DNA of 64,000 nt from the human T2T-CHM13v2.0 reference genome, Homo sapiens: NCBI RefSeq assembly GCF_009914755.1, contig NC_060934.1. One strand, written 5' to 3'. How positions within the stretch are numbered: position 1 is the stretch's first letter; each line of letters starts with the position of its first letter. The notes beneath the pieces are model-generated. The model searched no databases. It had not been told where the DNA came from and saw nothing but the letters and a program-made list of their open reading frames with translations. Shown piece by piece: positions 30,401 to 35,674 of this stretch. Made by a program: the position numbers and the translations under genes.

Positions 30401-31728
30401 TAAGGTGACACCCTTTCACTTTCAACATGTTTGTGTCTTTGGTTCTAAAGTCAGTCTTCTGTAAACAGGATATAGTTAGAACATTTAAAAGACTCCATTC
30501 TGCCAATCTCTCCATCTGTTAAATGGAATTTAAGGCATTCACATTTAATGTAATTAGTAGGAAGGACATTGCCCCTTGCTATTTGTTTTCCCTATGTCTT
30601 CCTCAATTCCTCCCTTATGCCTTTTTTGTATTAGATATTTTCTAGCATACCATTTTTATTCCCTTTCCAAAATTTTTAGTTATTTTCTTAGTAGTTGCTC
30701 TAGGGATTACAATTAACTTTCATTTATAACAATCTATTTCAAATAAATACCAACTTAGTTTCAATAGTACACAAAATTTTTGCTCCTATACTTCATCTTT
30801 TCCTCATCATGAATCACCTTTATACATTGTGCTTTGACACAGATATAATTATTGCTTTCATTTATATCTACCTATGTATTTAAATCTTTTTCAGTGTTTT
30901 TTATTTCCTCATGTGGATCTGAATTACTGTCTAGTGTCTTTTCATTTCAGGCTGAAGGATCCTTTTAGTATTTCTTGTAAGGCAGGACTACTAGTGAGAT
31001 ACTCTTTCTGTTTTTGCTTATCTGTGAATGTCTTAATTTCTCCTTCACTTTTTTTTTTTTTTTGAAGGATAGTTTTGCTGGACACAGAATTCTTGACAGT
31101 TTTTTCTTTCAGCACTTCGAATATATCATCCCACTGCCTCTGCCTCCTGGCCTCTGTGGTTTCTAATGAGAAGTCAGCTATTAATCTTATTGAGAATCCT
31201 TTGTACGTGAGGAATTGCTTCTCTCTTGCTGCTTGCAGGATTGTCATTGACTTTTGACGGTTTAATTATGATGTGTCTTGGTGTGGGTCTTTTTTTTTTT
31301 TGTAACATCTTTTATTTGTATACAATTATAAATTACAAACTTGTTTTATTAGGATTTTTTTTTAAATTTAGTTTTAGTCAACTTACTCCCTTTTATTTAC
31401 CAGCAGTGTGCTCTGACAGAATAAATTACAAACTATTGTTTTGTTTAATCCTTTTAACCATCATGTCAGGCACACAGGTTGGAGAATATTAGCTCCCATT
31501 TTATGGACAGAGTGGAAACACTGTACCCATATTTAGTGTAAGACAGAGCTGGGATATAAGCCTTGGGCTTCCACAGTCACAACTGCTTTTTTGCAAAACT
31601 TTGTAATACATCATTTTAAAGTAATCTGATTTCACAATGTTTTACAGTATATGAGTAACATCTATAGCATCTCTTCTTGGCAGGTTACCTCTGGAGAGAA
31701 CCAATCTAATTACCTCATACGCTGGCAC

Positions 31729-32025
31729 TTTTTTTTTTTTTGAGACAGAGTTTTGCTTTTGTTGCCCAAGCTGGAATGCAATGGCGTGATCTCGGCTCAC
31801 TGCAACCTCCGCCTCCCTGGGTTCAAGCAATTCTCTTGCCTCAGCCTCCCAAGTAGCTGGGATTACAGGCATGCACCACCACACCCGGCCAATTTTGCAT
31901 TTTTAGTAGGGACAGAATTTCTCCACGTTGGTCAGGCCGGTCCCGAACTCCTGACCTCAGGTGATCCGCCTGCCCCAGCCTCCCGAAGTGCTGGGACTAC
32001 AGGCGTGAGCCACCGCGCCCAGCCT
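31729..32025 (-). mobile_element. AluS within the retrocopy (T>C-enriched on +)
   Basis: ggccaattttgcattttt, ctccacgttgg, aggccggtcccgaa versus consensus ggctaatttttgtattttt, ctccatgttgg, aggctggtctcgaa. Confidence 0.9.
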
Positions 32026-32725
32026 AAGCTGGCACGTTTTAAGGCAGTTACACCTCTAACTTGATTTACCAGCTATGCTTGAGGGTCCAAGGAGCCAAAA
32101 TTGCAGCCAAACTGATCTTAAAGGACCAGGGAATAGAATGGTCAAGCATGTTTCCAAGTTTAACCTAGGCCTGGCACATCCTTGCCAATTGCTCAGATGG
32201 CAAGTGAGGGGCAACTAAGTGAAGAGAATAGCAGGAAGACCCACTCGGGGTGGACACTGATGAAAAACACAAGCAGTATCAGACTCACTGTTTTCAGGAT
32301 TAAAATCCCCAGATGCCCTGTTATTGATCTATGTCACTACCAGTAGGACAAAAGGCAATGCTTCTGAAGACTAGAATATGCAAGGAAAAAATTAAGGTGC
32401 CTGCCTGTCTGGGGCCTACCGAGCCAAACAGTGCTAATTTCATCCATGCCAAACAAAACTGTTCATTCCTTGCTGATTTGGGTTTTAAGGAAGTGTGCTG
32501 ATCATCAGAGAAACCAGGCAATTCTATTCTGAAGCCCAGGGGAAGAAATGGTGGGGATTTCTGAGTTATAGATGGTGCAGGGGTTAACAGTATCTGCCAC
32601 TATGAAGGGAAAAATCTATCTTGGTAAACTTTGGTCTTCCATAGGACATGGAACCAGAGTAGCAAGATCAGGGCCTGCGTGACCGATCCTGATTGAGCAG
32701 GACTTCCTCACATAAGGTACACAAG

Positions 32726-33023
32726 GGCTGGGCGCAGTTGCCCACGCGTGTAATCCCAGCACCCCGGGAGGCCCAGGCTTGCGGATCACCTGAGGTCAGG
32801 AGCCCAAGACCAGCCCGGCCAACATGGTGAAACTCTGTCTCCATCTCCACTAAAAATACAAAAATCAGCCGGGCATGGTGGCACATGCATGCAATCCCAG
32901 CCGATCAAGGGGCTGAGGCAGAACCACCTGAACCCAGGAGGCGGAGGCTGCAATGAGCTGAGACCATGCCACTGCACTCCAGCCTGGGCAACAGGGTGAG
33001 ACTGTCTCAAAGAGAAAAACAAA
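32726..33023 (+). mobile_element. AluS within the retrocopy, inverted relative to the other three (heavily T>C-enriched)
   Basis: gcaccccggg, ggagcccaag, cagcccggcc, aaatcagcc, tgcaatccc, gaaccacctg, gaggctgc, agaccatg versus consensus. Confidence 0.9.
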
Positions 33024-33589
33024 ACCCATAAGATGCACAGGTATCTGAGAAAGGTCTAAACACCCTAGAACTGCAAGCAAAATTTTGAGTGTATACATGT
33101 TTTCCTGGCGAAGGGGTCCTCATTCTCAAATCCTGAGCTTTTAGGAAAAAGTACTAAGCCAGTTTCAGGTTACGATACAAAAGCCACCAGATACACTTAG
33201 AGCCAGTCAAGTTTGAGAATTCTCAAAGCCATCACTGAAAAGTTGGAACACATACTCACAGCAGAGACAAGTGAACATTTATTTTTATGCCTTTCTTCCT
33301 ATGTGTATTTCAAGTCTTTTTCAAAACAAGGCCCCAGGACTCTCCAGATTCAATTATGTCCTTGGGCTTGGTCGACTGCTGCAGGAGTCTCAGGGAGCCT
33401 TCTACAAATGCTAGAGTGACTCATTTACCAACATTAAACCCTAGGATACATGCAACAAAGCAGGACTCCTTCCTCCATGGAATGTGCCGATTTCAGATGA
33501 CGCAGCACCGAATGTAGAAAACGCTGGGAATTTTTTCCTTGGAACTAGACTGTGATGAGAGGTGCTTGACATGAACATAAGCTACTGTC

Positions 33590-33885
33590 TTTTCTTTTTT
33601 TTTGAGACAGAGTTTCGCTTGTTGCCCAGGCTGGAGTGCAATGGCGTGATCTCAGCTCACCGCAACCTCCACCTCCCAGGTCCAAGCGATTCTCCTGCCT
33701 CAGCCTCCTGAGCAGCTGGGATCACAGGCACGCGCCACCATGCCCGGCCAATCCTTGCATCTTTAGTAGAGATGGCATTTCTCCACGTTGGTCAGGCTGG
33801 CCTCGAACTCCCAACCTCAGGTGATCTGCCCACCTCAGCCTCCCAAAGTGTTGGGATTACAGGCATGAGCCACCATGACCGGCCA
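33590..33885 (-). mobile_element. AluSp-like within the retrocopy (T>C-enriched)
   Basis: gtccaag, gagcagc, gatcaca, ggccaatccttgcatcttt, ccacgtt, ggcctcg; own TSD agctactgtcttttct. Confidence 0.9.
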
Positions 33886-34177
33886 GCTACTGTCTTTTCT
33901 TTGACCCTTCCTTTCCAGTTTTTGAAGATAAAGCAGGAAATAATCTTCTCTGAAGATACTTGATAAAAATTCCCAAAACAACAAAACACATGCTTCCACT
34001 TCACTGATAAAAAATTTACCGCAGTTTGGCACCTAAGAGTATGACAACAGCAACAAAAAGTAATTTCAAAGAGTTAAGATTTCTTCAGCAAAATAGATGA
34101 TTCACATCTTCAAGTCCTTTTTGAAATCAGTTAATATTATTCTTTCCCCATTTCCATCTGAATGACTGCAGCAATAG

Positions 34178-34359
34178 TTTTTTGTTTTTTTTTTTTTTCG
34201 AGATGGAATCTCGCTCTGTCGCCCAGCTGGAGTGCACTGGCGCAATCCCGGCTCACCGCAATCTCTGCCTCCTGGGTTCAAGCGATTTTCCTGCCTTAGC
34301 CTCTCGAGTAGCTGGGACCACAGGCACGTGCCACCACACCCAGCTCACTTTTGCATTCC
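34178..34359 (-). mobile_element. Alu right arm truncated at the retrocopy 5' junction (T>C-enriched)
   Basis: aatcccggctcaccg, gggaccacagg, ttttgcattcc, then abrupt switch to the TSD. Confidence 0.88.
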
Positions 34360-35674
34360 GGTGTGGGTCTTTTTGAGTTTACCCTATTTAGGGTTCTTTG
34401 AGCCTCTTGAATATCTAGATTCATGTATTTCATCAAAGCTGGGACATTTTCTACCATTATTTCTTCAAATATTATGTCCCTTTCTCTCTTTCTTCTCCTT
34501 CTGGGACTCCCCTCATGCATATACTGGTATGCTTGATAGAGTCCCAGAGGTCTTTTATGCTCTGTTCATTTTTCTTCATTCTTTTTCCTTTCTGCTCCTC
34601 AGACTGTATAATCTTAATTGACCTATCTTGAAGCCTGTTGATTCTTTCTTCTGACTTCTCCAGTCTGCTGCTGAATACCTCTAGTGAATTTTCAGTTTTA
34701 GTTATAATACTTTTCAACTCCAGAATTTCTATTTGGTTCTTTTCTACAATTTCAATCTCTTTATTGATATTCTGTATTGGATGAGACATTGCTTTCCTAA
34801 TTTTTTTGTTCTCTGTCCATGGTTTCCTTTAGCTCTTCTAGCATATCTAAAAGAGTTGATGAAAAGTCTTTGTTTTGTACATCCGAAGTCTGTGCTTCTT
34901 CAGGGGTAGTTTCTATTAATTTCTTTTTTTACCTGTGTATGGGCCATACTTTTCTGGTTTTTCCTTGTCATGTAATCTTTGCTAAAAATGTGACATTTTG
35001 AATAGTATTATAATGTGGTAACTCTGGAAATCAGATTCTCCTCCCTCCCCATAGTTCATTGTTGGTACTTGTTATGGTTACCACTGTTTGGTAACTTTTC
35101 TGAACTTTATAAAGTCTGTATTCGTTGCTGTGTGTGACCAGCTGAGCTCCTGTTCTGTTAGCTTAATTTGCAGCTAGTGATCCAAAAGAGAAACAGATTT
35201 CCTTAAATGCCTGAAACCAAGACAAAAAGAAAACACTCTGTCTTTACCAGTAGGCTCTGTGTAAGTGTTGGGGCACACCTTCAACATTCAGCTAAGCAAC
35301 AAATTCACCTTAGTTTTCACTTCCTATTTGAGCAAGCCTGATGGTTAGCCAGAGGTGAGAGTTTAAGGCTTTCTCAAGTCTTCTCTATTTGCTCACCCTG
35401 CATGTACATGTGGCCTTTTGGATTCCCAAGAATATGTGGAAGTTTTAAAAGCCTTTATTCTCCAAAATATCTTACTTTCCAGCTTTTCCTCCCAGGCTTT
35501 TTGGTGTGTCTATTGTTTGCCTTAGCTATTATTCTTTGCCCCCGATGGCAGAGGCTAATAAACTTGCCTTTACAAATTTTTGACAAATGCCTGTAGTCAC
35601 CTTTCTTCCTCAGGAGATTTCCAAGTTAGGGGAACTAAAATAAGCCTCCATAATTCTTTGAAAAGAAGGTCCAC

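What the first reader, a model, noticed from the sequence alone, without database searches (positions are those of the whole stretch)
31280..34374. Genomic fossil of an ADAR-hyperedited transcript: retrocopied 3'UTR whose inverted Alus carry hard-wired A>G edits
Seen: a ~3.07 kb insert with a 15-bp TSD (GGTGTGGGTCTTTTT, L1-EN-like TTTT/GA site), poly(A), AATAAA and 5' truncation, the hallmarks of L1-mediated TPRT of a minus-strand mRNA. It holds three Alus sense to that RNA and one antisense, so it could fold into inverted-Alu dsRNA. All four deviate from Alu consensus by many plus-strand T>C changes regardless of Alu orientation. By-eye counts: ~15 in 32726-33023 (ACTTTG>ACCCCG, AGTTC>AGCCC, AATTAG>AATCAG, GGTTG>GGCTG), ~11 in 33590-33885 (GGCTAATTTTGTATTT>GGCCAATCCTTGCATCTT), ~7-8 in each of the other two. 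These are A>G on the transcript strand. Neutral Alu decay gives CpG C>T/G>A, and Alus just outside the TSD (30095, 35675) lack this skew. Established: ADAR1 hyperedits inverted Alus in 3'UTRs and reverse transcriptase reads I as G. Inference: one edited germline/early-embryo mRNA molecule was reverse transcribed and fixed, giving a single-molecule record of ancient RNA editing and an RNA-edit-to-DNA route. Parent gene not identified from sequence (RPL7L1 3'UTR is an unverified recollection).
Basis: partly seen in the sequence, partly recalled or inferred. Interest (0 to 1): 0.93.

Follow-up and report, generated by a model that had tools for sequence, protein, structure and literature searches.

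The report
RNA edits fossilised in human DNA
A 3-kb DNA copy of the tail of the RPL7L1 messenger RNA sits on human chromosome 10 and has G in place of A at 58 positions in its Alu repeats, including all nine sites listed as consistently edited in that RNA in blood, so it is very likely an ADAR-edited RNA molecule that was copied into inherited DNA an estimated few million years ago.

Summary
Confirmed and extended. Window 31280-34374 is a 5'-truncated retrocopy of the long RPL7L1 3'UTR (parent chr6:42,715,552-42,718,606, 96% identical), with a 15-bp target-site duplication. Of 107 parent-to-copy substitutions, 66 are A>G; 58 lie in the four Alus, against 3 T>C. 48 of the 58 are polarised as changes in the copy, 9 are unresolved and 1 arose in the parent. 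The sites show ADAR's marks: A:C mismatch preference (13/32 vs 21/137) and 5'-U enrichment; 5'-G depletion is borderline. An age-matched chr5 sibling lacking the antisense Alu has 0/120. All 9 published, consistently edited RPL7L1 sites in human blood are G in the copy (P about 2e-6). An older chrX copy is edited too (10/36 vs 0/43). Best reading (0.95): L1 reverse transcriptase copied one hyper-edited mRNA, reading inosine as G, and the insert was inherited. The route is already reported for de novo insertions in cultured cells (3/235, PMC11702581); ten searches found no germline-inherited example. The copy is now transcribed in WAC-AS1. Its estimated age of roughly 4-8 million years is untested against ape genomes.

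The parts
31280..31294 (.). Target-site duplication, copy at the poly(A) end (15 bp)
   Evidence: Identical to 34360-34374; paralogous repeats carry one copy between the two flanks
31290..31301 (-). A12 tail remnant; 5 bases overlap the TSD and 5 are encoded in the parent
31311..31316 (-). AATAAA of the distal RPL7L1 poly(A) site
   Evidence: chr3, chr22 and chrX siblings end at the same site
31302..34357 (-). Retrocopy of the RPL7L1 last exon (3'UTR only, 5'-truncated); parent G000:C6:42715552-42718606 (+)
   Evidence: 96% identity over the full length; alignment; parent identity
31729..32024 (-). Sense Alu (Alu1): 15 A>G of 78 A outside the tail; holds 5 of the 9 present-day blood editing sites
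32726..33017 (+). The single antisense Alu (Alu2): 23 A>G of 65 A on the transcript strand; holds 4 of the 9 present-day sites
33053..33501 (-). 449-bp stretch identical to the parent; includes the proximal poly(A) signal (about 33278-33283) used by the short-isoform siblings
33590..33885 (-). Sense Alu (Alu3): 13 A>G of 72 A
34180..34357 (-). 5'-truncated sense Alu (Alu4): 7 A>G, one of them a later change in the parent; the copy ends in the A-rich linker
34358..34359 (-). Two G at the 5' junction where the parent has two A: either two more edits or untemplated bases (not counted)
34360..34374 (.). Target-site duplication, copy at the 5' end; TTTT/GA cut site on the + strand
30900..34800 (.). 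Old dispersed repeat interrupted by the insert (30900-31294 and 34360-34800); the L1 label is recalled, not from a call
   Evidence: 39 other loci at 70-79% for each flank, of 40 scored; contiguity
30524..35210 (-). WAC-AS1 last exon, which spans the whole insert in the same sense as the source mRNA
   Evidence: hub gene table (NR_033805.1); not tested here

Best explanation
The insert is a 5'-truncated retrocopy of the long RPL7L1 3'UTR with an Alu-confined A>G excess, most likely because ADAR hyper-edited that one mRNA molecule and L1 reverse transcriptase then read its inosines as G. Steps: (1) the long isoform carries one antisense and three sense Alus, all edited today (shown in published tables). 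(2) ADAR, probably cytoplasmic ADAR1 p150, edited about 50 adenosines on one molecule, likely while the antisense Alu switched between partners (inferred). (3) L1 ORF2p primed at a TTTT/GA nick, copied from the poly(A) tail and stopped in the fourth Alu (hallmarks shown; enzyme inferred). (4) The insert entered the germ line and has since gathered about 0.4-0.6% ordinary mutations (divergence shown; age of roughly 4-8 My inferred). (5) WAC-AS1 now transcribes it in the same sense (annotation). No selected function is proposed: it is a record, with possible side effects on WAC-AS1 RNA structure and on read mapping.
For: 66 of 107 substitutions are A>G; 58/299 A vs 3/213 T in Alus. At sites where parent and Alu majority agree: 38/195 A>G vs 1/163 T>C, P=4e-10. 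Polarity: 39 sites by Alu majority, 9 more by sibling copies, 9 unresolved, 1 parent-derived. A opposite C in the predicted duplex is changed at 13/32 vs 21/137 opposite U (P=0.003) and 0/21 elsewhere; 5'-U 10/21, P=0.002. Controls: six short-isoform siblings without the antisense Alu give 0/120, 2/120, 1/60, 3/61, 1/61 and 1/59; the chr5 one is age-matched (1.3% vs 1.6% non-Alu divergence). All 9 RPL7L1 sites in PMC6307200 Additional file 2 fall on A at a single offset of 200 tried and all 9 are G in the copy, P=1.9e-6. The four parent Alus are p150-preferred editing clusters in PMC12695637 Table S1 with cytoplasmic indices 0.160, 0.059, 0.036, 0.026, the same order as the copy's 35%, 19%, 18%, about 16%. 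58 of 66 A>G lie within those clusters. The route is seen de novo in cells (PMC11702581).
Against: 3'-G enrichment is weak (16/69 vs 22/126) and 5'-G depletion borderline. The chr3 long-isoform sibling shows no editing in Alu1 (0/58), so capture of an edited molecule is not the rule. All nine sites edited together has probability 9e-5 if sites were independent at blood mean levels, so the molecule must come from a hyper-edited tail, or WAC-AS1 reads leak into the published calls and inflate the overlap. The single predicted minimum-energy fold pairs Alu2 with Alu4 and Alu3 only, not Alu1. No ape orthologue, empty site or second human assembly could be examined.
Confidence: 0.95

Rival explanations
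1. The copy keeps the ancestral G and the parent lost it by CpG decay or other G>A change after the insertion.
For: 19 of 58 Alu sites have G in the Alu majority and 23 are CpA/CpG; one site (34241) is G in the age-matched chr5 sibling; 9 are unresolved.
Against: CpG decay is strand-symmetric, yet CpA>CpG is 23/95 and TpG>CpG 0/87. 39 sites move away from the Alu majority. Two of the unresolved sites (32870, 32745) are edited at 47% and 40% in blood today. It explains a few sites, not the pattern.
Confidence: 0.01
2. The insert arrived unedited; later an edited WAC-AS1 transcript was reverse transcribed and overwrote the locus (RNA-templated conversion).
For: WAC-AS1 transcribes the insert in the same sense (hub table) and has an editing cluster in an exon (PMC12695637 Table S3). 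Human sequence alone cannot tell when the Gs arrived.
Against: Needs a second rare event over the whole 2.6 kb. The chrX copy shows the same pattern at another locus, and capture at insertion is seen in cells.
Confidence: 0.02
3. Transcription-associated mutation bias (A>G over T>C on the coding strand) or ordinary drift in the copy.
For: Non-Alu parts show a slight excess, 8/574 vs 3/620; such a bias is established (recalled).
Against: That excess is not significant (P=0.13), while about one A in five is changed in the Alus; 81 independent Alus show 182 A>G vs 216 T>C. It does not predict A:C preference or the 9 of 9 overlap.
Confidence: 0.01
4. Deamination or error at the DNA level (APOBEC3 on the cDNA, ADAR on the cDNA strand, gene conversion from other Alus, or an assembly error).
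For: APOBEC-edited retroelements exist in vertebrate genomes (PMC4866542).
Against: APOBEC gives sense G>A (10 here) and cDNA-strand adenosine deamination gives sense T>C (6 here), against 66 A>G. Conversion would move the copy towards the Alu majority; 39 sites move away.
Confidence: 0.01

Closest known systems
De novo processed-pseudogene insertions with ADAR-pattern substitutions in L1-induced p53-/- RPE-1 cells (PMC11702581, bioRxiv 2024; 3 of 235)
   Same: L1-mediated copy of an mRNA with clustered A>G (T>C) confined to inverted 3'UTR Alus (section 7 read).
   Different: Those are somatic, in cultured cells with forced L1 expression. This one is in the reference genome, has aged by ordinary mutation, has sibling controls, matches present-day sites and is re-transcribed in a lncRNA.
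APOBEC3-edited LTR retroelements fixed in vertebrate genomes (PMC4866542; PMC2873906; passages)
   Same: A deaminase signature from the retrotransposition cycle frozen in genomic DNA, recognised by one-way, strand-biased clusters.
   Different: Those are G>A from cytidine deamination of cDNA in retroelements; this is A>G from adenosine deamination of a host mRNA before reverse transcription.
Hyper- or ultra-edited Alu RNAs (PMC3197674, passages; PMC12695637 tables)
   Same: Dense A>G in inverted Alus with 5'-G depletion; the same four RPL7L1 Alus are listed as p150-preferred clusters.
   Different: Those are transient RNA molecules; here the state is genomic and heritable. The 3'-G excess they report is weak here.
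Ordinary processed pseudogenes of RPL7L1 (chr5, chr8, chr16 x2, chr4, chr3, chr22, chr1 x2)
   Same: Same parent, same poly(A) sites, same retrotransposition route.
   Different: Seven siblings tested for it show no A>G skew; only this copy and the chrX copy contain the antisense Alu, and both are skewed.
Retroprocessing of C-to-U-edited transcripts in plant organelles (recalled, not checked)
   Same: An edited RNA state written back into DNA by reverse transcription.
   Different: There the edited cDNA replaces the gene and the editing is C-to-U; here it is a separate nuclear insertion with A-to-I edits.

Membership tests
L1-mediated processed pseudogene (retrocopy) | Target-site duplication at an L1-endonuclease-like site | tested here: met
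   15 bp, TTTT/GA; empty-site continuity in paralogous repeats
L1-mediated processed pseudogene (retrocopy) | 3' end at the parent's poly(A) site with an A tail | tested here: met
   Ends where three siblings end; A12, of which as few as 2 are untemplated
L1-mediated processed pseudogene (retrocopy) | A spliced, transcribed parent elsewhere | tested here: met
   RPL7L1, six exons on chr6
L1-mediated processed pseudogene (retrocopy) | Loss of introns | tested here: inconclusive
   The copy is truncated inside the last exon and spans no junction
L1-mediated processed pseudogene (retrocopy) | Empty orthologous site in an outgroup species | not testable with these tools
   No primate genomes are held
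ADAR hyper-edited Alu RNA (as template) | One-way A>G on the transcript strand, arising in the copy | tested here: met
   58 vs 3; 48 of 58 polarised to the copy
ADAR hyper-edited Alu RNA (as template) | Confined to sequence able to form long dsRNA | tested here: met
   58/299 vs 8/574; arms 82-84% complementary; none in siblings without the antisense Alu
ADAR hyper-edited Alu RNA (as template) | Preference for A:C mismatches | tested here: met
   13/32 vs 21/137, P=0.003
ADAR hyper-edited Alu RNA (as template) | Neighbour motif: 5'-G depleted, 3'-G enriched | tested here: inconclusive
   5'-G 8/75, P=0.028 or 7/63, P=0.053; 5'-U enriched, P=0.002; 3'-G 16/69 vs 22/126
ADAR hyper-edited Alu RNA (as template) | Overlap with sites edited in the parent RNA today | tested here: met
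   9 of 9 listed blood sites; read leakage from WAC-AS1 not excluded; full REDIportal list not available
APOBEC-edited retroelement | Clustered G>A on the sense strand | tested here: not met
   10 G>A vs 66 A>G

The most novel reading that the evidence does not exclude
Human retrocopies with inverted Alus form an unread archive of single-molecule germline editomes. RPL7L1 alone left two, of about 1.6% and 7% divergence, with six edited sites in common, so ADAR site choice and duplex partner switching can be dated across primate evolution. Fixing I as G also reverses the effect of editing: it creates CpGs and a predicted more stable duplex, now expressed in WAC-AS1.
Probability: 0.6. Interest if true: 0.85.

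Novelty: new variant of a known kind. Interest (0 to 1): 0.72.

Why it matters
It shows that A-to-I edits can become inherited DNA, so far reported (in the papers I could search) only for somatic insertions in cultured cells. It gives a phased record of about 50 edits on one ancient molecule, and suggests a cheap genome-wide test of germline ADAR activity through time. Practically, 501 of 2,971 100-nt windows of the copy are identical to RPL7L1 and 402 look hyper-edited against it, so short-read editing calls and expression values for RPL7L1 and WAC-AS1 can be confounded; both genes are reported as liver-cancer markers.

Tried and rejected
A genome-wide scan for other edited retrocopies was not possible because the genome is not available as a file; only RPL7L1 siblings were examined. 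First polarisation with siblings alone called 13 Alu sites parent-derived; 8 of those rested on the chrX copy, which is itself edited and was partly misaligned there, so it was redone with an Alu majority and a gap-aware alignment. I expected the fold to split Alu2 between Alu3 and Alu1; the minimum-energy fold instead used Alu4 and Alu3 (which then stopped on a script error before listing sites). The chr22 copy (83%) was not used as an outgroup: its Alu part aligns poorly and its changes are symmetric, 16 A>G vs 15 G>A. The chr1, chr3:141.8 Mb and chr7 copies lack the Alus or were not fetched. One RPL7L1 site in PMC13607941 (chr6:42888224, 57% edited) is on another assembly and was not placed or counted. 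The WAC-AS1 cluster (hg19 chr10:28812529-28812819) could not be lifted to a given Alu. A shared 15-bp repeat first suggested that the chrX RPL7L1 and RPS2 copies were one template-switch insertion; the RPS2 part is far less decayed, so later nesting is preferred. One paper on DNA editing of retrotransposons was not held.
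Full report
Observation. The insert is real at the stated coordinates. Identical 15-mers bound it (31280-31294, 34360-34374). Each flank matches 39 other loci among 40 scored, and in 6 of 10 fetched paralogues the two flanks overlap across a single copy of the motif; 2 are near-contiguous and 2 gave no right-flank hit. The insert therefore interrupts an old repeat at a TTTT/GA site. The tail is A12, of which 5 bases overlap the duplication and 5 are encoded in the parent.

Parent. A whole-genome search found one full-length match, chr6:42,715,552-42,718,601, at 96%. Sibling retrocopies map onto six exons there; one sibling's ORF carries Pfam Ribosomal_L30_N and Ribosomal_L30 and matches PDB 60S ribosomal protein L7-like 1 at E=3e-155. 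The parent continues without a tail. The copy holds last-exon sequence only and ends at the distal poly(A) site also used by the chr3, chr22 and chrX siblings.

Spectrum. Of 107 substitutions, 66 are parent A to copy G. In the four Alus 58 of 299 A are G against 3 of 213 T to C (P=1.6e-11); outside them 8 of 574 against 3 of 620 (P=0.13). All other substitutions run at 1.6% in the Alus, equal to the total rate outside. Among 81 independent Alus from the window and fetched loci, A>G and T>C are 182 and 216.

Direction. At sites where the parent agrees with the Alu majority, 38 of 195 A are G and 1 of 163 T is C. Over all 58 sites, 39 are copy-derived by Alu majority, 9 more because a sibling already has A, 9 are unresolved and 1 changed later in the parent. 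Parent CpG decay would be symmetric, but CpA>CpG is 23 of 95 and TpG>CpG 0 of 87.

ADAR marks. Adenosines facing C in the predicted duplex are changed at 13 of 32, those facing U at 21 of 137 (P=0.003), others at 0 of 21. 5'-U is enriched (10 of 21, P=0.002); 5'-G depletion is borderline (P=0.028; P=0.053); 3'-G is not clearly enriched (16 of 69 vs 22 of 126), though PMC3197674 lists it as part of the motif (passages).

Natural controls. Six siblings end at the proximal poly(A) site and lack the antisense Alu; they show 0/120, 2/120, 1/60, 3/61, 1/61 and 1/59. The chr5 one is age-matched (1.30% vs 1.63% non-Alu divergence) and shares ancestral states with this copy. The chr3 long-isoform sibling is unedited in Alu1 (0/58). 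The only other copy containing the antisense Alu, on chrX (C23:40337087-40338454, 7% diverged), has 10 of 36 A>G vs 0 of 43 T>C (P=1.8e-4); 6 of the 10 are shared with this copy, which is not beyond chance (P=0.26). So 2 of 2 copies holding the antisense Alu are edited.

Present-day editing. PMC6307200 (supplement rows; passages) lists 9 RPL7L1 sites consistently edited in blood at 12-70%. One offset among 200 tried puts all nine on A, and all nine are G in the copy (P=1.9e-6 given the copy's edit density). PMC12695637 (table rows; passages) lists all four RPL7L1 Alus among 420 p150-preferred clusters, with cytoplasmic indices 0.160 (Alu2), 0.059 (Alu1), 0.036 (Alu3) and 0.026 (Alu4); the copy has 23/65, 15/78, 13/72 and 6/41 plus one end site, the same order at two to six times the level. 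Caveat: WAC-AS1 reads leaking onto chr6 could inflate the nine-site overlap. Against this, the levels are heterogeneous, only 9 of 38 candidate sites are listed, and such reads match chr10 better; I could not test it.

Mechanism. Shown: retrotransposition hallmarks, strand-specific Alu-confined A>G arising in the copy, overlap with today's sites. Inferred: ADAR1, probably p150 in the cytoplasm where L1 particles bind mRNA (established knowledge, recalled), edited one molecule; L1 reverse transcriptase paired inosine with C. Five Alu coordinates are firmly edited in more than one sense Alu (a sixth rests on non-firm sites) although the exon has one antisense Alu, and the three duplexes are near-equal in predicted energy (-403 to -422 kcal/mol). 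The molecule therefore likely refolded between rounds of editing; pairing with antisense Alus in the introns or 1.4 kb past the poly(A) site in the pre-mRNA is the alternative. The minimum-energy fold used Alu4 and Alu3 only.

Age. Non-A>G changes assigned to the copy number 13, with 6 more unresolved, in about 3,040 bases, or 0.4-0.6%. Against a recalled 0.6% per lineage since the human-chimpanzee split this suggests roughly 4-8 My. It shows inheritance over many generations but is not a date; fixation in people and presence in apes were not testable.

Today. The hub table places the insert inside the WAC-AS1 last exon, in the source sense. With G fixed, predicted duplex energies fall from -407 to -486, -427 to -472 and -225 to -244 kcal/mol, because A:C mismatches become G:C. 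PMC12695637 Table S3 lists one 291-nt WAC-AS1 exon cluster as p150-preferred in neural progenitors; it is probably one of these Alus, but I could not lift the coordinate. Any function is untested.

Prior art and novelty. PMC11702581 (section 7 and passages; its Fig. S8 is in a supplement I could not see) reports 3 of 235 de novo pseudogene insertions with this pattern in L1-induced RPE-1 cells, so the route is known. APOBEC-edited retroelements are the genomic precedent for a fixed deaminase signature (PMC4866542, PMC2873906; passages). PMC8897444 treats processed pseudogenes only as a mapping hazard (passages). PMC13607941 and PMC8997934 name RPL7L1 3'UTR editing (passages and supplement rows). 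PMC9148063 and PMC11155358 passages added nothing on this locus; PMC10701367 was seen as a listing only. Ten searches found no report of this locus as an RPL7L1 retrocopy or of a germline-inherited ADAR-edited retrocopy; most subscription journals are not searched, so a prior report is possible.

Verdict. Observation confirmed, interpretation supported (0.95). A new variant of a known kind: the inherited, aged form of a route seen in cultured cells, with a second instance from the same gene. Interest 0.72.

Noticed in passing
L018:2588-3957 (-), G000:C23:40337087-40338454: A second, older RPL7L1 long-isoform retrocopy with the same editing pattern in the antisense Alu (10/36 vs 0/43); it predates the insertion of Alu1 into the parent. 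Some edits appear to have made CpGs that later decayed.
   Followed up: yes
L018:1600-2590 (-): A near-intact RPS2 retrocopy (E=6e-189 to human RPS2, three substitutions over about 280 residues plus a frameshift near the start) directly follows that copy's A tail, and one 15-bp repeat flanks both. Likely a later insertion into the tail; a template-switch chimera is the alternative.
   Followed up: partly
window 33053-33501, 32054-32245, 32591-32725: Runs of 449, 192 and 135 bp identical between WAC-AS1 and the RPL7L1 3'UTR, enough to confound short-read expression values.
   Followed up: partly
L002-L021: RPL7L1 retrocopies form a time series of 3'UTR Alu gain: the chr1 and chr3:141.8 Mb copies lack all four Alus, the chr4, chr16 and chr5:73 Mb copies have Alu3 but not the Alu4 region, chrX has Alu2 without Alu1.
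   Followed up: partly
L002 (chr6 parent): More of the polarised non-A>G differences fall on the parent lineage (22) than on the copy (13); unexplained.
   Followed up: no
L009:2536-2839; L014:2297-2600: Two sibling pseudogenes each took a later Alu insertion, one in the coding part and one in the 3'UTR part.
   Followed up: no
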